In this document: piece after piece, positions 49,941 to 63,739 of the stretch | How the letters are laid out: each line of letters starts with the position of its first letter | Numbering within the stretch: position 1 is the first letter of the stretch | Assembly: GCA_035456125.1 (NCBI GenBank) | Contig: DATIDT010000029.1 | Location: 8,694-72,693 of the forward strand | Direction: 5' to 3' | From: Gaiellaceae bacterium | GTDB taxonomy: Bacteria; Actinomycetota; Thermoleophilia; Gaiellales; Gaiellaceae | Length of the DNA: 64,000 nt | Translations under genes and position numbers: made by a program | The notes under the pieces: model-generated | Told to the model about the DNA's origin: nothing | The model's input: the letters and a program-made list of their open reading frames with translations, nothing else | Databases searched by the model: none

Positions 49941-49958
49941 CCGTCACAAGTCTGTAAC
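49941..49958 (+). promoter_or_regulatory. Pho-box-like pair CCGTCAC-N4-CTGTAAC (11-bp phasing) upstream of ppk
   Basis: Read directly. The same 7-mers occur as in the pstS array (CTGTCAC, CCGTCAC). Confidence 0.35.
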
Positions 49959-50004
49959 CCACATGCCCAAGTCCGTACGAGAAGATGGATCGGTGGCGCG
50001 CGCC

Positions 50005-56329: not shown

Positions 56330-56542
56330 CTAGCCGGACGCGGCCAGACGAAGGTTCTCGCGGACGTGGCGATGCACCAGGACCGGCACGAAGTCCACGA
56401 CTCTCGCATTGCGCATCAGCTCGTCGGTCACGCGGACGAACTCGCGGTGCACCAGATCGCGATCCAACGCGACGAACTCGCGCGCAACCTCGGACTCGGC
56501 TTGCCGCATGCGCTGGTCGAAGTTCTCGTCGCGTTCAGTCAC
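56330..56542 (-). CDS. Small three-helix-bundle-type protein (70 aa)
   Basis: ...ARVVDFVPVLVHRHVRENL, a motif I recall from N-terminal dimerisation domains of actinobacterial phosphatase-family proteins. Tentative. Confidence 0.45.
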   Translation of the reverse strand: MTERDENFDQRMRQAESEVAREFVALDRDLVHREFVRVTDELMRNARVVDFVPVLVHRHVRENLRLAASG

Positions 56543-56555
56543 GAGGGACGCCGAT

Positions 56556-56583
56556 CTTGACTTCGGTCGCGGACGGAGTCAAG
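56556..56583 (-). terminator. Hairpin CTTGACT-N14-AGTCAAG spanning the phoU stop codon
   Basis: Read directly. 7-bp arms. Possible intercistronic attenuator. Confidence 0.3.
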
Positions 56584-57259
56584 ACCCGCGCGCCGGCGGG
56601 TGCGTTGCGTCCGTGAACTCACGAAACTCCGCAGTGAGCAGGTAGGCGACCTGCTCCCCGATGTCGACCGCGTGGTCGCCGATGCGCTCCAGCGAGCGCG
56701 AGACGAGCACCATCCGGAGACCGTACTCGCGCATCGCCGCCGCTTCGCCGAGCTCGAGGATCCGCTCGACGACACGGCGGTTGGCGCGGTCGACGAGCTC
56801 GTCGAGCGCGACAAGCGACTCCGCAGCCTCGAGGTCGCGATTCGCGAACGAGTCGAGCGCGATCTTGATCATCTCCTCGCAGCGCGCACCCATCTCTTCG
56901 AAGCCCTCGATGAAGCGAGGCGACGGCTCGACGTCCGGCACGAGCTTCGACAGCTTCGCGATCGTGACGCAGTAATCGGCCATGCGCTCGAGATGCAGGT
57001 TGACGTGGAGGATGGCGAGCACGAGGCGGAGGTCGCTCGCGACTGGCGTCTGCCGCGCCAGCAGCGTCTGGATCCCCTCTTCGATCGCGATGTACCGCTG
57101 GTCGACGTCGTCGTCGAACGCGATCACCTCGTCTGCGAGCTCGTGGTCGCGCTGCTCGAGCGCGTTGAGCGCGCCGCGGAGCGCCCGCAGGACGAGGTCG
57201 CCCTCCTCGTGGAGCGTCGCCTCGAGCACATCCAGCTCATCCTGAAACGTCGTCCTCAC
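56579..57259 (-). CDS. phoU: Phosphate signalling regulator PhoU
   Basis: GTG start behind GGAGGAC. Two PhoU repeats, ...DDDVDQRY... and ...ERIGDHAVDIGE.... Confidence 0.9.
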   Translation of the reverse strand: MRTTFQDELDVLEATLHEEGDLVLRALRGALNALEQRDHELADEVIAFDDDVDQRYIAIEEGIQTLLARQTPVASDLRLVLAILHVNLHLERMADYCVTIAKLSKLVPDVEPSPRFIEGFEEMGARCEEMIKIALDSFANRDLEAAESLVALDELVDRANRRVVERILELGEAAAMREYGLRMVLVSRSLERIGDHAVDIGEQVAYLLTAEFREFTDATHPPARGS

Positions 57260-57410: not shown

Positions 57411-58268
57411 TCATCCGAACCGGCCGGTGACGTAGTCCTCCGTGCGCTGGTCGGCAGGGTTCGTGAAGAGCTTGTCCGTCTTGTCGTACTCCACCAGGAT
57501 TCCCGAGCGCTTCCCGTCGTCGACCTGCAGCGAGAAGAACGCCGTCATGTCGGCGACGCGCGCGGCCTGCTGCATGTTGTGCGTGACGATCACGATCGTG
57601 TACTCGTTCTTGAGGTCGTGCATCAGCTCCTCGATCGCGGCCGTCGCGATCGGGTCGAGCGCCGACGCCGGCTCGTCGAGCAGCAGCACCTCCGGCTCGA
57701 TCGCGATCGCGCGCGCGATGCAAAGCCGCTGCTGCTGGCCGCCTGACAGCGAGAGGGCGCTCTTCTTCAGCCGGTCCTTGACCTCGTCCCACAATGCTGC
57801 GCCGGTCAGCGCCTTCTCGACGCGCTCGTCGAGGCCCTTCTTCATCCCGAGCACCCGCGGGCCCCACGCGACGTTGTCGTAGATCGACTTCGGGAACGGA
57901 TTCGCACGCTGGAACACCATCCCGATCCGCCGTCGCACCTCGACCGGATCGACGCCGTCGGCGTACATGTCCTGGCCGTGATAGAGCAGCTCCCCGTGGA
58001 CGCGAGCTCCGGGAACGAGGTCGTTCATGCGGTTCAGGCAGCGAATGAAGGTGCTCTTGCCGCACCCCGACGGGCCGATGAACGCAGTGATGAGGTTGCC
58101 GTAGATCTCGAGGTTGACGCCGCTGATGGCGGTGACCGGCCCGTAGGTGACGGCGAGATCGTTGATGTCGAAGACGATCTCGCGCTGCATCGGTGCGGCC
58201 GGCGCGCGTTCTTGGGCGATCTCCACGTGCGCCACGTCGACGGGGATCGTAACGTCGTCGGTCATCAT
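57411..58268 (-). CDS. pstB: Phosphate ABC transporter ATP-binding protein
   Basis: [45 protein letters not shown]. Confidence 0.95.
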
Positions 58269-59152
58269 CGTCCGAGCTTCCTCCTGGAGCGGGCGAGCAG
58301 GGCCTTCGCGAGCAGGCTCGACACGAGCACGAACACCATCAGCACGAGCGCGGCGCCCCACGCCTGCTCGTGCAGCGCCTGGTCGGGCTGCTCGGAGTAC
58401 GTGAAGATCAGGACGGGGATGTTCGGCATCGCCTTCGAGACGTCGGTCGTAACCGTGCCGAGCTGGAAGATCGAGCTCGTGAAGAGCAGCGGCGCGGTCT
58501 CGCCGGCGGCGCGCGCGACGGCGAGGACGGCGCCGGTGAGGATGCCGCCAACGGCAGTCGGCAGGATCACGCCCATGACGCTCCGCCAGCGGCTGACGCC
58601 GAGCGCGAGACTGGCCTCGCGCAGCGCCGACGGCACGAGCAGCAGCGTCTCCTGTGCCGCGCGGGCGACGAGCGGCAGCATCACGATCGCGAGTGCGAAT
58701 GCGCCCGCGTACGCGCTCTGCCCGTTGCCGATGACGAGCAGGCCGTACACGAAGATGCCGGTGATGATCGTGGGCAGCCCGTTGAGGACGTCGAGCACGA
58801 GCTGAACCGGCTGAGCGACGGAGCGCGGCGCGAACTCCGTGAGGTAGATCCCGATCAGGACGCCGACCGGCAGCGCCAGCGCCGTCGCCATCGCGACGAT
58901 GATCGCCGAGCCGACGATCGCGCTGGAGATGCCGCCGCCGGGCTGGCCGAAGAGCGCAGGGGGCTTCGTGAGGAAGTTCCAGCTCAGCGCCGGCCAGGCG
59001 CGCAGGAGCACGGAGACGATGACGACGAAGAGCACAGCGACCGCCGCCAGCGCTGCAGCCCAGCCGATGAACTCCATGATCTTGTTGACGATCTTCCGCC
59101 GCCGCAGACCGCCGGAGGCTTTGAGCGTGACGGCAGGAGTGACGGCCGACAT
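58265..59152 (-). CDS. pstA: Phosphate ABC transporter permease PstA
   Basis: Internal start MSAVTPAV..., 1-nt overlap with the pstC stop. ...[12 protein letters not shown]... EAA loop. Confidence 0.9.
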
Positions 59153-60120
59153 CAATGGGCTCCCTTGAGCGGATCGAAGACGCGCACGATGACCTGCGCG
59201 GCAAGGTTCGTCAGCAGCCCGATCACCATCAGGATCGCGGCGAGGTAGAGCAGGGACGCCGCCTCGAGGCCTGAGGCCGCTCCCTGGTAGCTCGCGGCGA
59301 TCTTGCTCGCGAGCGTATCGATCGGCCCGAAGACGTTCGCGGAGATCGTCGTCCCGCCGCCGATCACCTGCGTCACGGCGATGGCCTCTCCGAGCGCGCG
59401 ACCCAGGCCGAGGATGATCGCTGCGGCGATCCCCGTCCTCGTCGACGGGATGATGACGCCGCGCACCATCTCCCAGCGCGTGGCGCCAAGGGCAAGCGCT
59501 CCTTCCTCGAGCTCGTTCGGGACCTGCAGGAACAGCTCGCGGCAGATGCTGGCGATGATCGGGACGATCATGATCGTCAGGATCAGGCCGGCGGTGAACA
59601 GCCCGGTTCCGGTCGCGGAAGGTGGGCCGAACAGCGGGATGAAGCCGAGATGGTCGTGCAGCCACGGTTCGAGGTGGTCCGCGAGGAACGGGCCGAGCAC
59701 GAGGATCCCCCAGAGCCCGAGGACGACGCTCGGGATGGCAGCGAGCATCTCGACGAGCGACCCCACGACGCCGCGGACGCCGCCGGGCGCCAGCTCGCTC
59801 AACCAGAGCGCGATCGCGATCGAGAGGGGCGTCGCGATGACGAGTGCGATCAGCGAGCTCATCGCGGTGCCGTAGATGAACGGGAGCGCGCCGAAGACAC
59901 CCTTGACGGGGTCCCACGTCTTGCCTGTGACGAAGCTCAGCCCGTAGTGCTGGATGGCCGGCCACGCCAGGTGGATGACCTTCCAGACGATCGCGCCGAG
60001 CAGGACCAGGGCCGCGAGCGCGGCGAGAGCCGTCACGACCCTGAGGGCGACGTCGCCGATCCGGTCGGTGAGTCGGCGGGTGCTGCTGCGGAGGGAGTAC
60101 CCGGACGGCACGGCGCTCAT
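59152..60120 (-). CDS. pstC: Phosphate ABC transporter permease PstC
   Basis: 322 aa. ...[12 protein letters not shown]... EAA loop, six TM. Confidence 0.9.
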
Positions 60121-60162: not shown

Positions 60163-60206
60163 GTTTACCAGCCTGTCACCACACCGTCACCTCGCGTCTG
60201 CCCACC
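60163..60206 (+). promoter_or_regulatory. Array of four 11-bp-phased direct repeats (Pho-box-like)
   Basis: GTTTACCagcc TGTCACCacac CGTCACCtcgc GTCTGCCcacc, read directly in the pstC/pstS divergent spacer. Confidence 0.55.
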
Positions 60207-60272
60207 CCTGCTCCGACGGGCGGCATGCTCGCCGCGATCGACTCCACGCCGACATACGGGAAGGAGGGCGAC

Positions 60273-61313
60273 TTGAGCAGGAAAACCATCACGCTGCTGA
60301 CGGGCGTCCTTGCGGCGCTCGCGGCAACTGCGATCGCCGGCTCCGCAGGAACGGCACAGGCTCGGCCGCAGGCGACCGAGTTGACGGGCGCCGGGAGCAC
60401 GTTCGTCGCTCCGCTCGTCGCCGTCTGGACGCAGAAGGTCGACTCGCTCGGCCTCAAGGTCACGTACGGGCCGATCGGATCCGGCGGCGGGATCAACGCC
60501 GTCACGAGCCGGACCGTCGATTTCGGCGCGAGCGACGCGCCGCTGACCCCGGATCAGTTCGCCGCCTGCAAGGGTTGCGTGCAGATCCCCTGGGCGCTCT
60601 CCGCAACGGCGATCGCGTACAAGGGCGACGCGCTGCCGAACCATGTCCACCTGACAGGTCAGGTGCTCGCGAGCATCTTCGCCGGCCGGATCACGAGCTG
60701 GACCGACCCGGCGATCAAGAAGCTGAACAAGGGCAAGTCGCTCCCGAACCTGAAGATCACCGTGATCCACCGCTCCGACAACAGCGGCACGACCTACAAC
60801 CTCACCGACTATCTGTCGCACGTCAGCCCGTCGTGGAAGAGCGCCCAGGGCAAGGGCGTCGCCGTCAACTGGCCGACCGGCATCGGCGCCCGCGGCAGCT
60901 CCGGCGTTGCGGCCGCGCTCAGCTCGACCGACGGCGGCATCACCTACGTCGACGTCGCGTACACGCTCAAGAACCACCTCAAGTTCGCGACCGTGAGGAA
61001 CAGGGCCGGGACGTACGCGCTCCCCGGGCTGACGGGAATCAAATCGGCGGCCGCAACCATCAACCGCGTTGCCCCCGACAACGGCGGGATCTCGATCGTG
61101 AACCCGGCGAGAACGCAGAAGCTCGCCTACCCGATCTGCACGTTCACGTACGTGATCGTCCCCAAGCAGACGTCGAAGGCAGCCGACCTGAAGAAGTTCG
61201 TGAACTGGGCGTTGACGAAGGGCCAGGCCGACGCGCCGAAGCTGCTCTTCGTGCCGATCCCAAAGGTCGTGCTCAGGGCGTCACTCAAGACGACCGCTCT
61301 GATCCACGGCTAG
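60273..61313 (+). CDS. pstS: Phosphate-binding protein PstS (Sec-type signal peptide, AQA cleavage site)
   Basis: GGAAGGAGGG RBS then a TTG start. GAGSTFVAP, YGPIGSGGG, FGASDAPL, RSDNSGTT motifs. Confidence 0.9.
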   Translation: MSRKTITLLTGVLAALAATAIAGSAGTAQARPQATELTGAGSTFVAPLVAVWTQKVDSLGLKVTYGPIGSGGGINAVTSRTVDFGASDAPLTPDQFAACKGCVQIPWALSATAIAYKGDALPNHVHLTGQVLASIFAGRITSWTDPAIKKLNKGKSLPNLKITVIHRSDNSGTTYNLTDYLSHVSPSWKSAQGKGVAVNWPTGIGARGSSGVAAALSSTDGGITYVDVAYTLKNHLKFATVRNRAGTYALPGLTGIKSAAATINRVAPDNGGISIVNPARTQKLAYPICTFTYVIVPKQTSKAADLKKFVNWALTKGQADAPKLLFVPIPKVVLRASLKTTALIHG

Positions 61314-61326
61314 CTTCGACGAGGCC

Positions 61327-62001
61327 CTACGGGGCGGGGAAGCTGCACACGACGCGCAGCCCCCGCCCCGGGCCGCCCGTCGCTTCCACCTGACCCCCCG
61401 CGGAGGCCACGACGTGCTTGACGATCGCGAGACCCAGCCCCGTCCCGCGCGAAGCACGCGCGCGGTCGCTGCGGTAGAACCGCTCGAACAACCGCGGCAG
61501 CTCCTCCTCGTCGACTCCGCGGCCGTCGTCCGAGACCTCGAGCAAGCCCGGCCGCGCAACGAGACGGAGGCTCGTGCCGGGGCCTGCGTACCGGATGGAG
61601 TTCAGCGCCAGGTTCTCGACGACGATCTGCAGCATGCGGCGGCGGAGCGGGATGACGACGTCAGGCGACGTGTCGATGAGGATCTCGACATCGGCACGCT
61701 CCGCGCTGTCCGCGAGCCGGTCACGTGTCTCCTCGAGTACCGGCAGCGCCGGCGTGCCCCCGAGCGAGACGACGAGGCGGCCGCTCTCGAGCTCGGACAG
61801 AAACAGCACGTCGTCGATCAGCTCGCGCATCTCCTCGACCTGCTCGCGCGCCTCGGCAAGCAGGGCGTCGCGGTCTGCTCCGGGCAGGTCGGCCGAGTCC
61901 AGGAGTGCCAGCAACCGCGCCAGCGGCGTCCGCAGCTCGTGCGAGACCGCAGCTGTAAAACCCACCCGGAGCTCCTCGTACGCCCGCGCGTCCTCCATCA
62001 T
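61327..62001 (-). CDS. Histidine kinase core only (HisKA + HATPase), no sensor or TM region
   Basis: 224 aa. The H-box AAVSHELRTPL begins at residue 17. N-box VENLALNSIRY, G-box DDGRGV...GTGLGLAI. The ORF cannot extend upstream. Confidence 0.8.
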   Translation of the reverse strand: MMEDARAYEELRVGFTAAVSHELRTPLARLLALLDSADLPGADRDALLAEAREQVEEMRELIDDVLFLSELESGRLVVSLGGTPALPVLEETRDRLADSAERADVEILIDTSPDVVIPLRRRMLQIVVENLALNSIRYAGPGTSLRLVARPGLLEVSDDGRGVDEEELPRLFERFYRSDRARASRGTGLGLAIVKHVVASAGGQVEATGGPGRGLRVVCSFPAP

Positions 62002-62012
62002 TCGGAGCGAGT

Positions 62013-62717
62013 ATGGCCAAAGTCCTGATCGTCGAAGACGACCGCGTCATCGCAGAGGGCATGGCGCGACACCTCTCCACCGCCGGCTTCGACCCGGTGG
62101 TCGTCGGCAAAGGCGAGCAGGGGCTTGCGCGCCTGCGCTTCGAGCGCCCGGACGTCGTCGTGCTCGACTTGATGCTTCCCGAGCGCGACGGCTGGAGCGT
62201 CATCCAGGAGGCACGGTCCGAGGGCATTGCGACGCCGATCGTCGTCGTCTCCGCGCGCGGCACCGAGCACGACCGCGTGCACGCGCTCGAGATCGGCGCG
62301 GACGACTACCTCGTCAAGCCGTTCTCGATGAAGGAGCTCGTTGCACGCGTCCGTGCGGCGACGCGCCGCGCGAACCGCCGCGACGACGCGCCACGCGGCG
62401 AGCCGATCGAAATCGAGGAGCTGCGCATCGACCCACGCGAAGTGCAGGCGTTCGTCGACGGCGAGAGCGCGGAGCTGACGCCGACCGAGTTCCGGCTCCT
62501 GTATCAGCTCGCGCTGGAGCGGGGCCGTGTCGTCACCCGTGACGAGCTGTTGCAGAAGATCTGGGGGCGCCGCGAGACGCATCGCGACCGCACCGTCGAC
62601 GTGTTCGTGCGGCGGCTGCGCGACAAGATCGACCGTCGCGCCTCGCGGCACACGTTCATCCAGACGCGGTACGGCGTCGGTTACCGACTCGAACCAGCGG
62701 ACAAAGACGGGGCGTGA
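62013..62717 (+). CDS. OmpR/PhoB-family response regulator (PhoP/RegX3-like by context)
   Basis: MAKVLIVEDD..., DVVVLDLMLPERDG, ...TRYGVGYRL. Confidence 0.9.
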   Translation: MAKVLIVEDDRVIAEGMARHLSTAGFDPVVVGKGEQGLARLRFERPDVVVLDLMLPERDGWSVIQEARSEGIATPIVVVSARGTEHDRVHALEIGADDYLVKPFSMKELVARVRAATRRANRRDDAPRGEPIEIEELRIDPREVQAFVDGESAELTPTEFRLLYQLALERGRVVTRDELLQKIWGRRETHRDRTVDVFVRRLRDKIDRRASRHTFIQTRYGVGYRLEPADKDGA

Positions 62718-63739
62718 GACCGCTCGTGCTCGTCGCCGGCGTCCTGCTGCTTGCAGGCTGCGGCGGCAAGGGCAAGAGCAGCGACTCGAGCTCCGGCGGC
62801 GCCCTCGTCGGCGCCGGCTCGACACTCGTCTTCCCTCTCGTCGCGAAGTGGATTCCGGACTATGCGAAGACGCACGGCGTCGCGATCACGTACGGGCCGA
62901 TCGGCAGCGGCGGCGGCATTCGGCAACTGACGAACCGCGCCGTCGACTTCGGGGCGAGCGATGCACCACTGACGGCGAATGAGCAGAGCGCGTGCAAGGG
63001 CTGCGTCGAGATCCCCTGGGCGCTCGCCGGTACCGCGATCACGTACAACGTGCCGGGCGCGCCGAAGCACCTCAGGCTGACGGGCCCCGTCATCGCCGAC
63101 ATGTTCCTCGGGAAGATCACGTCATGGAACGACGCGGCGATTGCCAAGCTGAACCCCGGCGCCAAGCTCTCGACCATCCCGGTGACCCCGATCTTCCGGA
63201 GGGACTCGAGCGGCACGACGTACACCTTCACCGACTTCCTGTCGCGCGTGAGCCCGACGTGGAAGCGCCGTCTGGGTACGGGCACGTCCGTCGAGTTCCC
63301 GACGGGCGCGGGCGGCGAAGGAAGCTCCGGAGTCGCGGCCGCGCTCTCCCGTGCGCGCGGGGCGATCGGCTATCTCGACGCGGCCTACGCGATCGAGAAC
63401 GGCCTCTCGTCCGCGGCCGTCCGGAACCGCGCCGGGAACTACGTCCTCCCGGTCCGCCGCGCGGTGAGCGCAGCTGCAGCGACCGTCACGAGCGTACGGC
63501 CCGGGAAGGCGGTCTCGATCGTCGACCCCCCTGCGTCGGCCGCAGCCGCCTACCCGATCTCGACGTTCACCTACGCCGTCGTCCCGCAGAAGTCGGCGAA
63601 GGCGAATCTGCTCAGTCCGTTCCTGACGTACGCCATCGGCCCCGGCCAGCGATTCGCCGCCGCGCTGCAGTTCGCGGTGCTCCCGCCGAAGATCCTCGCC
63701 GCCGACAAGGCGACGATCGCGAAGCTTCGAACGTCTTGA
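62714..63739 (+). CDS. pstS: Phosphate-binding lipoprotein PstS paralog
   Basis: GTGA coupling to the regulator. Lipobox LLLAGC. GAGSTLVFP, YGPIGSGGG, FGASDAPL, RRDSSGTT. Confidence 0.9.
   Translation: MRPLVLVAGVLLLAGCGGKGKSSDSSSGGALVGAGSTLVFPLVAKWIPDYAKTHGVAITYGPIGSGGGIRQLTNRAVDFGASDAPLTANEQSACKGCVEIPWALAGTAITYNVPGAPKHLRLTGPVIADMFLGKITSWNDAAIAKLNPGAKLSTIPVTPIFRRDSSGTTYTFTDFLSRVSPTWKRRLGTGTSVEFPTGAGGEGSSGVAAALSRARGAIGYLDAAYAIENGLSSAAVRNRAGNYVLPVRRAVSAAAATVTSVRPGKAVSIVDPPASAAAAYPISTFTYAVVPQKSAKANLLSPFLTYAIGPGQRFAAALQFAVLPPKILAADKATIAKLRTS

What the first reader, a model, noticed from the sequence alone, without database searches (positions are those of the whole stretch)
61327..62717. Sensor-less histidine kinase head-to-head with its regulator, start codons 11 bp apart, nested between two pstS genes
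The kinase ORF is only 224 aa. The phospho-acceptor His (SHELRTPL) is at residue 21, so there is no TM, HAMP or PAS region. An in-frame extension is impossible because the RR gene starts 11 nt away on the other strand (62001 vs 62013).

Each promoter must therefore lie inside the other gene, or the kinase mRNA is leaderless. No SD precedes its ATG.

PhoR-type kinases normally sense the Pst/PhoU state through a PAS domain. This one may be a rearrangement remnant, may be constitutively active, or may be controlled purely by protein partners such as PhoU, PstB or the small three-helix protein.
Basis: partly seen in the sequence, partly recalled or inferred. Interest (0 to 1): 0.6.

Follow-up and report, generated by a model that had tools for sequence, protein, structure and literature searches.

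The report
Phosphate sensor kinase without its sensor
A soil actinobacterium (reported as family Gaiellaceae) keeps a phosphate-regulon kinase that consists only of its 223-residue catalytic core, placed start-to-start with its regulator gene; it is a conserved natural equivalent of a laboratory truncation that made the mycobacterial kinase unresponsive to phosphate.

Summary
The ORF at 61327..62001(-) encodes only HisKA + HATPase_c. An AlphaFold2 model (pLDDT 89) shows a DHp hairpin plus a CA domain and nothing else.

The conserved start is the second ATG (61998), giving 223 aa and a 14-nt gap to the regulator's ATG at 62013. No N-terminal extension is possible.

It is not a decaying remnant:
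- 17 same-genus genomes carry full-length orthologs (75-94% identity, dN/dS 0.16).
- All 17 are start-to-start with the regulator.
- At least 120 clusters of 223/224-aa orthologs occur in soil metagenomes.

Relatives form a series. More distant relatives have TM + PAS (about 400 aa). The sister genus has a soluble form with a shortened PAS (311 aa) and a normal 150-nt divergent spacer. This genus has neither PAS nor spacer. A second family also lacks PAS, and there the gene sits between pstB/phoU and phoU.

The best reading is an intact PhoR/SenX3-lineage kinase/phosphatase core that receives its phosphate signal in trans, probably from PhoU and possibly PstB. The main rival is a constitutive kinase.

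Transcript starts could not be mapped. The scan's earlier unchecked notes record similar PAS-less phosphate kinases on other DNA. This is a new variant of a known kind, of moderate interest.

The parts
61327..61998 (-). Sensor-less PhoR/SenX3-lineage histidine kinase, 223 aa from the conserved ATG at 61998. It consists of a DHp hairpin plus a CA domain only.
   Evidence: ORF and Pfam domains. Genus alignment and conserved start. dN/dS 0.16. AF2 model with pLDDT 89: helices 2-36 and 43-71, then an alpha/beta domain at 84-219. Fold matches to engineered kinase cores.
61999..62001 (-). Extra upstream ATG (M1), present in 9 of 17 orthologs. It is a possible alternative start.
61939..61941 (-). Codon of the phospho-acceptor His, within SHELRTPL. 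The HExxT phosphatase motif is intact.
   Evidence: invariant in alignment A3
62002..62012 (.). The 11-nt spacer between the two start codons (14 nt counted from M2). CGAGT before the regulator's ATG is invariant in 17 genomes.
62010..62015 (-). CATACT, a candidate -10 element for the kinase that overlaps the regulator's ATG. It lies 8 nt before the first kinase ATG in 15 of 17 genomes (11 nt in L004 and L006). This is inference only.
   Evidence: Reading. RR codons 2-10 show suppressed synonymous variation. The sigma-70 scan found nothing.
62013..62717 (+). OmpR/PhoB-type response regulator, 234 aa. D9/D10, D52, S80 and K102 are present.
62714..63739 (+). pstS2, whose start overlaps the regulator's stop (GTGA).
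60225..61313 (+). pstS1, convergent with the kinase. The two stop codons are 13 nt apart. The true start may lie downstream of 60225.
61317..61382 (+). Strong GC hairpin right after the pstS1 stop and inside the kinase's 3' end. It may be a pstS1 terminator, or it may be a by-product of the conserved G/P/R codons.
   Evidence: -50.2 kcal/mol, z -3.2. Conserved in 5 of 6 genomes aligned.
59152..60120 (-). pstC, divergent from pstS1.
58265..59158 (-). pstA (start approximate).
   Evidence: reading of the merged ORF
57411..58270 (-). pstB (start approximate).
56579..57259 (-). phoU. It is the only PhoU gene found in this genome and in three genus genomes that are 90-93% complete.

Best explanation
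The gene encodes an intact, soluble histidine kinase/phosphatase core of the PhoR/SenX3 lineage. It works with the adjacent PhoB/RegX3-type regulator on the pst genes.

Origin: in the ancestor of this genus, the divergent promoter spacer (about 150 nt) and the roughly 88 codons of an already shortened, membrane-free PAS domain were lost. The DHp helix then began 14 nt from the regulator's start codon.

Mechanism: the protein has no input domain, so the phosphate signal must reach it in trans. The most likely route is PhoU, possibly with PstB, acting directly on the DHp/CA core and shifting it between kinase and phosphatase modes.

Shown here: the anatomy, the conservation, the evolutionary series and the linkage to pstB/phoU.

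Inferred: catalytic activity, pairing with the neighbouring regulator, trans control by PhoU/PstB, and expression from promoters inside the neighbouring coding sequences or as a near-leaderless mRNA.
For: Anatomy:
- Only HisKA + HATPase_c are present, with H, N, G1, F and G2 boxes and HExxT intact.
- The AF2 model is DHp + CA and nothing else. It matches HK853cp, CusS, YycG and DivL core constructs end to end, with TM up to 0.87.

Conservation:
- 17 same-genus orthologs are full length, without stops, and start-to-start with the regulator at an 11- or 8-nt spacer counted from the codon-1 position, i.e. 11 or 14 nt from the conserved ATG.
- dN/dS is 0.16 overall and 0.07 for codons 2-14.
- At least 120 90%-identity clusters are 223/224 aa.

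Lineage:
- The best family models are PhoR and PnpS.
- In the tree, a 100/98 clade of PAS-less and mini-PAS forms is sister to TM-PAS forms.
- The mini N-domain is homologous to the PAS region (hhalign 96.3%, E 1.8e-9).
- The sister genus G263 has RR, a 150-nt spacer, then a 311-aa kinase followed by pstB-phoU-pstS-pstC.

Linkage to PhoU/PstB in several layouts:
- Family f3: pstB-(phoU)-kinase-phoU.
- G017: kinase-?-pstB-phoU.
- P0001 contig: kinase-pstSCAB-phoU.
- One phoU per genus genome, always in the kinase locus.

No second PhoR-like kinase scored E<=1e-30 in the genus (the two rows for G021 are pieces of one frameshifted copy), and no free-standing PAS piece was found.

Literature:
- PhoU + Pi alone switches soluble SenX3 to phosphatase mode in vitro.
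- The docking model for E. coli places PhoU between PAS and CA (PMC12301784).
- Small proteins can control a kinase through its DHp domain, as in the KinB-Sda structure 3d36, which appears among the fold matches.
Against: - In the only systems tested, the PAS domain is required for PhoU control. M. smegmatis SenX3 lacking TM + PAS (residues 127-384 or 151-384) leaves phoA and pstS derepressed at high Pi (PMC12301784).
- Linkage to pst and phoU may reflect only a shared regulon.
- No interaction, activity or transcript was tested here.
- In this genus the kinase is separated from phoU by four genes.
- G014, which is 92% complete, lacks both the kinase and the regulator at the thresholds used.
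- The NCBIfam PhoR and PhoB scores are well below the equivalog cut-offs.
Confidence: 0.5

Rival explanations
1. The kinase is constitutive. Without PAS the core stays in its default kinase mode, as engineered SenX3 truncations do. The Pho regulon is then permanently on, or is tuned only by how much kinase and regulator are made. Possible tuning routes are interference between the two overlapping divergent promoters, or read-through from the Pho-box-driven pstS1 across the antisense kinase gene into RR-pstS2. PhoU would only restrain the transporter.
For: - SenX3 truncations lacking PAS are derepressed at high Pi (PMC12301784).
- The deletion also removed the spacer, which in the sister genus holds Pho-box-like repeats.
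- No Pho-box pair was found in 61000-63000.
- pstS1 carries a Pho-box array and points towards RR-pstS2 through the kinase's antisense strand.
- Genomes in this group are small (about 2-4 Mb).
Against: - A constitutive input makes a two-component pair redundant, yet both genes are strongly conserved.
- The phosphatase motif HExxT is invariant.
- A strong hairpin follows pstS1.
- In family f3 the kinase sits inside pst-phoU operons, away from any regulator gene.
Confidence: 0.3
2. The bare core senses a small molecule itself, for example the ADP/ATP balance or Pi at the CA or DHp domain, and needs no partner.
For: - An intracellular signal of unknown identity controls PhoR in Salmonella (PMC11389368).
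- The whole core, including the ATP-lid region, is under purifying selection.
Against: No extra pocket or insertion appears in the AF2 model relative to ordinary cores. No precedent was found in the literature searches.
Confidence: 0.1
3. The kinase is unrelated to phosphate control: a generic orphan-like kinase that happens to lie in the locus, or one that serves another regulator.
For: NCBIfam scores are below the PhoR cut-off (147 vs 334 bits). Many bare HisKA+HATPase_c clusters exist in metagenomes.
Against: PhoR and PnpS are the best models. The protein nests with TM-PAS PhoR-like kinases, and every relative examined lies in a pst/phoU locus.
Confidence: 0.06
4. The gene is a decaying remnant or pseudogene of a truncated PhoR.
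For: It arose by loss of 5' sequence. Copies in G021 and G005 show frame breaks.
Against: - dN/dS is 0.16 and 17 orthologs are intact.
- There are hundreds of metagenomic orthologs of identical length.
- In G021 and G005 the neighbouring pstC, pstB and RR genes are also frame-broken, which points to noisy assemblies.
Confidence: 0.02

Closest known systems
Mycobacterial SenX3-RegX3 with PhoU1/PhoU2 (Seung et al. 2025, PMC12301784)
   Same: - It is an actinobacterial PhoR-type kinase with an OmpR-type regulator that controls pst genes.
- The membrane anchor is dispensable.
- PhoU + Pi acts directly on the soluble kinase.
- The engineered SenX3 151-384 (234 aa) has the same extent as this natural protein.
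   Different: - SenX3 has TM + PAS, and PAS is required for Pi control.
- Here PAS is naturally absent and the protein is conserved.
- The gene order differs: divergent, with start codons 11-14 nt apart, instead of senX3-regX3 in tandem.
E. coli/Salmonella PhoR-PhoB with PstSCAB-PhoU (seven-component Pi signalling)
   Same: The kinase has no ligand-binding sensor of its own and is thought to be set by PhoU/PstB. It is a bifunctional kinase/phosphatase of the HisKA class.
   Different: PhoR is membrane-anchored and contacts PhoU through its PAS domain. This protein has neither.
Soluble mini-PAS kinases of the sister genus (G263/G289; P0001, P0002)
   Same: - They are 62-64% identical in the core and fall in the same clade.
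- They lie divergent from the regulator gene (14-24 nt on the metagenome contigs of P0001 and P0002, 150 nt in G263).
- They have the same pst/phoU neighbourhood.
   Different: They keep an N-domain of about 80 residues that is homologous to PAS, and in G263 a 150-nt divergent spacer with Pho-box-like repeats.
Kinases controlled in trans through the core or by a transporter: KinA/KinB-Sda and BceS-BceAB
   Same: They work in a similar way. A partner protein, not an input domain, sets kinase activity. Sda binds the DHp domain, and BceS depends wholly on its ABC transporter.
   Different: They belong to unrelated families. BceS is membrane-embedded, and Sda is an inhibitor of autophosphorylation rather than a Pi signal.
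PhoU-kinase fusions without TM/PAS in Acidimicrobiia
   Same: If real, they are also PAS-less PhoR-type cores, with PhoU placed directly before the DHp domain. That would support direct control of the core by PhoU.
   Different: Here PhoU is a separate gene. I could not find such fusions among the 13 loci with long PhoU frames that I fetched.

Membership tests
HisKA-class histidine kinase (DHp + CA) | HisKA and HATPase_c domains score above the Pfam cut-offs | tested here: met
   47 bits vs 26.9 and 82.7 bits vs 26.4
HisKA-class histidine kinase (DHp + CA) | H box His, N, G1, F and G2 boxes, and the HExxT phosphatase motif | tested here: met
   SHELRTPL 20-27, ENLALNSIRY 129-138, DDGRGV 158-163, FERFYR 172-177, GTGLGL 186-191. 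These are invariant in A3.
HisKA-class histidine kinase (DHp + CA) | Four-helix-bundle hairpin plus alpha/beta ATP-binding fold | tested here: met
   AF2 pLDDT 89, pTM 0.83. Foldseek E 4e-18 to HK853, CusS, YycG and DivL cores.
HisKA-class histidine kinase (DHp + CA) | Autophosphorylation and phosphotransfer | not testable with these tools
   Needs biochemistry.
PhoR/SenX3 phosphate-regulon sensor kinase | Score above the curated equivalog cut-off (TIGR02966, NF008235, PnpS) | tested here: not met
   These are the best hits, but 146.9 bits vs 334.2, 106.2 vs 390 and 135.8 vs 400. Only the C-terminal two thirds of the models are matched.
PhoR/SenX3 phosphate-regulon sensor kinase | Cytoplasmic PAS domain between the anchor and DHp | tested here: not met
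   There is no room for one: His is at residue 20 and helix alpha-1 starts at residue 2.
PhoR/SenX3 phosphate-regulon sensor kinase | N-terminal membrane anchor | tested here: not met
   Maximum 19-residue hydropathy is 1.08.
PhoR/SenX3 phosphate-regulon sensor kinase | Descent from PhoR-type kinases | tested here: met
   The clade is sister to TM-PAS forms, with 100/99 support for the joint group. The PAS remnant in nearest relatives is homologous to their PAS.
PhoR/SenX3 phosphate-regulon sensor kinase | Gene linked to a PhoB-type regulator and to pstSCAB-phoU | tested here: met
PhoR/SenX3 phosphate-regulon sensor kinase | Pi-dependent control of the Pho regulon | not testable with these tools
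   Needs genetics or biochemistry.
PhoB/RegX3-type response regulator (the neighbour) | Receiver domain with acidic pocket, phospho-Asp, S/T and Lys, plus a winged-helix output | tested here: met
   Response_reg 95.5 bits, Trans_reg_C 87.3 bits. D9/D10, D52, S80 and K102 are present.
PhoB/RegX3-type response regulator (the neighbour) | Score above the PhoB equivalog cut-off | tested here: not met
   TIGR02154 is the best hit, but 205.7 bits vs 296.2. MtrA is nearly as good at 200.1 bits.
Leaderless or intragenic-promoter transcription unit | Transcript 5' end at or within a few nt of the start codon, or inside the neighbouring gene | tested here: inconclusive
   The RNA runs hold only short contigs of relatives at 90-93% identity. 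One undirected 156-nt contig spans the junction. There is no sigma-70-like match. Synonymous variation is suppressed in RR codons 2-10.

The most novel reading that the evidence does not exclude
Phosphate signalling here does not use PAS. PhoU, with or without PstB, binds the DHp/CA core of a 223-residue kinase directly. The soluble set of kinase, regulator and PhoU would then be a minimal natural Pi-sensing module. PAS loss occurred at least twice, in this genus and in family f3, because it had become dispensable in this lineage.
Probability: 0.35. Interest if true: 0.7.

Novelty: new variant of a known kind. Interest (0 to 1): 0.5.

Why it matters
How PhoR-type kinases perceive phosphate is still debated: transporter state, PhoU, or an intracellular signal. 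In both E. coli and M. smegmatis the PAS domain is held to be the site where PhoU acts.

A widespread soil lineage keeps, under purifying selection, a PhoR-lineage kinase with no PAS, no anchor and no promoter spacer. One of two things follows:
- PhoU or Pi can act on the catalytic core alone. That would give a small, fully soluble system for in vitro reconstitution.
- A two-component pair can be maintained with a constitutive kinase. That would also be instructive.

The graded natural series (TM-PAS, mini-PAS, none) parallels the published deletion series and provides ready-made comparison proteins. The 11-14-nt start-to-start junction is also a compact case for studying overlapping divergent promoters or leaderless expression.

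Tried and rejected
- **RNA evidence.** The best RNA runs held at most 11% of sampled words. When laid on the window, they gave only short contigs at 90-93% identity from relatives, with no strand information. No transcript ends were obtained.
- **Sigma-70 promoter and intrinsic terminator scan of 61200-62800.** No hits.
- **Pho-box search.** A PWM from the 60163-60202 array found nothing in 61000-63000. The PWM rests on four units and is weak.
- **Free-standing PAS piece (split kinase).** P0001:1-102 found nothing better than E 0.003, inside large ORFs, in five genus genomes. Rejected.
- **Small DUF3562 three-helix protein (56330-56542) as the kinase's partner.** Present in only 3 of 24 genus genomes. 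Rejected as a general partner.
- **Pseudogene reading from G021 and G005.** Their neighbouring genes are also frame-broken, so these are noisy assemblies.
- **PhoU-kinase fusions suggested by earlier notes.** The 13 loci I fetched, chosen for long PhoU open frames in a 300-genome phylum sample, hold separate genes that are merely adjacent or share a frame. Not verified.
- **Pfam PAS assignment of the mini N-domain.** Sub-threshold, and in only 1 of 8 members. Homology was instead shown by profile-profile comparison.
- **Literature search with 'sensorless'.** It returned only engineering papers.
- **Hairpin after pstS1.** It cannot be separated from the coding constraint on the G/P/R-rich C-terminus.
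Full report
**What is there.** The minus-strand ORF 61327..62001 encodes 224 aa.
- Pfam finds only HisKA (residues 14-74) and HATPase_c (122-223).
- The phospho-acceptor His in SHELRTPL is residue 21. The N, G1, F and G2 boxes and the HExxT phosphatase motif are all present.
- No stretch is hydrophobic enough for a membrane helix.
- An in-frame stop lies 15 codons upstream, with no start codon in between.
- The plus-strand ORF 62013..62717 is an OmpR/PhoB-type regulator with all receiver residues. Its stop overlaps the start of pstS2.
- pstS1 ends 13 nt from the kinase's stop. pstCAB-phoU lie beyond it on the minus strand.
- The window belongs to a soil metagenome-assembled genome of 1.9 Mb, 57% complete. 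An earlier agent placed it in family Gaiellaceae. I did not check that placement.
- The same DNA is present in at least 20 soil runs from 9 studies.

**Start codon and extent.** Seventeen same-genus genomes carry orthologs at 75-94% identity, full length and without stops. In all of them the kinase is start-to-start with the regulator, with 11 or 8 nt between the aligned codon positions.
- The first ATG of the window's ORF is replaced by ATC, CGG, CTG or CCG in eight genomes. The second ATG (61998) is conserved in 16 of 17. The real protein is therefore most likely 223 aa and the gap 14 nt.
- In seven genomes a TGA lies immediately before the start.
- An eighteenth genome (G015) has a variant with 13 extra, unrelated N-terminal residues and a 24-nt gap. 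It also has no PAS.
- An AlphaFold2 model built on a 20-sequence alignment (pLDDT 89, pTM 0.83) shows helix 2-36, helix 43-71 and an alpha/beta domain at 84-219, and nothing else.
- The model superposes nearly end to end on engineered catalytic-core constructs of HK853, CusS, YycG/WalK and DivL.

**Not a remnant in decay.**
- Pairwise dN/dS across the genus is 0.16. It is 0.07 for codons 2-14, so the extreme N-terminus is translated and constrained.
- A search of 5.8 billion proteins returned at least 120 clusters at 85-96% identity. Of these, 119 are 223 or 224 aa and one is 229 aa. JGI mostly labels them 'PhoR'.
- Two genus genomes (G021, G005) show frame breaks in the kinase. Their pstC, pstB and regulator genes are broken as well, which points to error-prone assemblies.
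- One 92%-complete genus genome (G014) lacks both the kinase and the regulator at the thresholds used.

**Lineage and origin.** The best NCBIfam models are PhoR (TIGR02966) and PnpS for the kinase and PhoB for the regulator. All score far below the equivalog cut-offs, because only the core is present or the sequence is divergent.

Relatives form a series:
- Kinases at 40-45% identity, from other families of the order and class, are about 375-450 aa with an anchor and a PAS region.
- The sister genus of the same family (G263 and G289, 97-100% complete) and many metagenome proteins (P0001, P0002 and others) are about 305-325 aa and soluble. They carry an N-domain of about 80 residues.
- That N-domain is homologous to the PAS region of the long forms, with an internal deletion of about 24 residues (hhalign 96.3%, E 1.8e-9). 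Pfam PAS models see it only weakly.
- In a maximum-likelihood tree of the cores, PAS-less and mini-PAS forms make one clade (100/98) that is sister to TM-PAS forms. The branching inside that clade is unresolved.

In G263 the layout is: regulator, a 150-nt spacer with Pho-box-like GTTACC/GGTAAC/GTTGAC repeats, then the 311-aa kinase followed by pstB-phoU-pstS-pstC. The state in the window's genus is therefore best explained by loss of the spacer together with the roughly 88 PAS codons.

A second family (f3) also has PAS-less kinases at 58% identity, with about 21-23 residues before the His. The window's own family contains both mini-PAS and PAS-less genera. PAS was therefore probably lost twice, but this is inference.

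**Linkage.** Every member of the reduced clade that I examined lies in a pst/phoU locus, in differing layouts:
- kinase-pstSCAB-phoU (P0001 contig);
- regulator, then kinase-pstS (P0002);
- kinase-pstB-phoU-pstS-pstC (G263);
- kinase-?-pstB-phoU (G017);
- pstB-kinase-phoU or pstCAB-phoU-kinase-phoU in f3, with no regulator gene within 7 kb;
- pstS1 convergent with the kinase in most of this genus.

Each genus genome checked has a single phoU, always in this locus. No second PhoR-like kinase scores E<=1e-30 in any genus genome. No free-standing PAS piece was found. The 70-aa DUF3562 protein after phoU is found in only 3 of 24 genus genomes, so it is not a general partner.

**How it most likely works.** The published analogue is direct. 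In M. smegmatis, SenX3 without its anchor still senses Pi. SenX3 without anchor and PAS (residues 127-384 or 151-384) leaves phoA and pstS derepressed at high Pi. Purified PhoU1 plus Pi switches soluble SenX3 towards phosphatase (PMC12301784). The protein here is a natural counterpart of the 151-384 construct.

Two readings follow:
- **(a) Trans control, about 0.5.** The signal arrives in trans and PhoU, possibly with PstB, acts on the core itself. The evidence is persistent linkage to pstB and phoU in several independent layouts, strong conservation of a bifunctional core, and precedents for partner proteins that act on DHp (the KinB-Sda structure among the fold matches; BceS-BceAB).
- **(b) Constitutive kinase, about 0.3.** The kinase is always on and regulation, if any, is at the level of expression. 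This fits the truncation phenotype and the loss of the Pho-box-bearing spacer.

Direct small-molecule sensing by the core, an unrelated role, and decay are less likely.

**Expression.** With 11-14 nt between the start codons there is no room for promoters.
- No sigma-70-like promoter or intrinsic terminator is detected.
- No Pho-box pair is detected in 61000-63000.
- CGAGT before the regulator's ATG is invariant.
- At four-fold codons, the regulator's codons 2-10 show almost no synonymous variation (0-0.12, against 0.4-0.7 further on). Kinase codons 4-45 vary normally. This fits a kinase promoter or 5' end laid over the regulator's first codons. It could equally reflect constraints on the regulator's own translation start.
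- CATACT on the minus strand (62015-62010) lies 8 nt before the first kinase ATG in 15 of the 17 genomes, covering both spacer variants, and 11 nt before it in L004 and L006 (reading). It is a weak candidate -10 for a near-leaderless mRNA.
- A strong hairpin (61317-61382, -50 kcal/mol, z -3.2) follows the pstS1 stop inside the kinase's 3' end. It is conserved in 5 of 6 genomes aligned but is confounded with conserved G/P/R codons.
- The RNA libraries were uninformative.

**Novelty.**
- Bare HisKA+HATPase_c proteins of about 215-235 aa are common in metagenomes. They make up 53 of the 100 nearest named Atlas clusters. A sensor-less kinase is therefore not new in itself.
- Full-text searches found no description of a natural PAS-less PhoR/SenX3.
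- This scan's earlier, unchecked notes record another sensor-less kinase divergent from a PhoP-like regulator, and PhoU-kinase fusions lacking TM and PAS in Acidimicrobiia. I could not verify the fusions in the 13 loci with long PhoU frames that I fetched.
- No claim here rests on the genomes flagged as unpublished.

**Verdict.** This is a new variant of a known kind. Interest is moderate: it offers a minimal natural system for an open question, but its mechanism is untested.

Noticed in passing
window 60163-60202: Four 7-nt units (GTTTACC, TGTCACC, CGTCACC, GTCTGCC) at 11-bp phasing lie between the divergent pstS1 and pstC. This is the top-scoring Pho-box-like site in the whole window with a PWM built from these units themselves. 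A weaker pair lies at 49942-49959.
   Followed up: partly
window 56330-56542 (-): A 70-aa DUF3562 / MSMEG_6209_Nter three-helix protein gene lies 36 nt after phoU. It was found in only 3 of 24 same-genus genomes, each time in the same locus.
   Followed up: yes
L035 (G015:C51) 1-340: A genus variant. The kinase has 13 extra Arg/Pro/Thr-rich N-terminal residues, the gap to the regulator is 24 nt, and the regulator starts with GTG.
   Followed up: partly
L041-L044 (family f25 of the phylum sample): The layout is pstCAB-phoU followed directly by an OmpR-type regulator gene. No kinase hit appears in the fetched 6-7 kb.
   Followed up: no
L045-L047 (family f17): The phoU stop is followed 3-4 nt later, in the same frame, by the start of a 408-aa kinase with a PAS-like N-region and no obvious membrane anchor. 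The pair is divergent from a regulator gene.
   Followed up: partly
L032 (G032:C6): This PhoR-like copy has in-frame PAS remnants upstream but only one possible start, 25 residues before the His. It may be a truncated or frameshifted copy in family f5.
   Followed up: no
window 61922-62074: A 156-nt contig from a root metatranscriptome library (X25, 90% identity, undirected) spans the kinase/regulator junction of a relative. It is compatible with transcription across the junction or with DNA carry-over.
   Followed up: no
L053 1738-1887 (G263): The sister genus's 150-nt divergent spacer holds CCGTTACCATCCGGTAACACGTTGACGG. It reads both as Pho-box-like repeats and as an inverted repeat.
   Followed up: no
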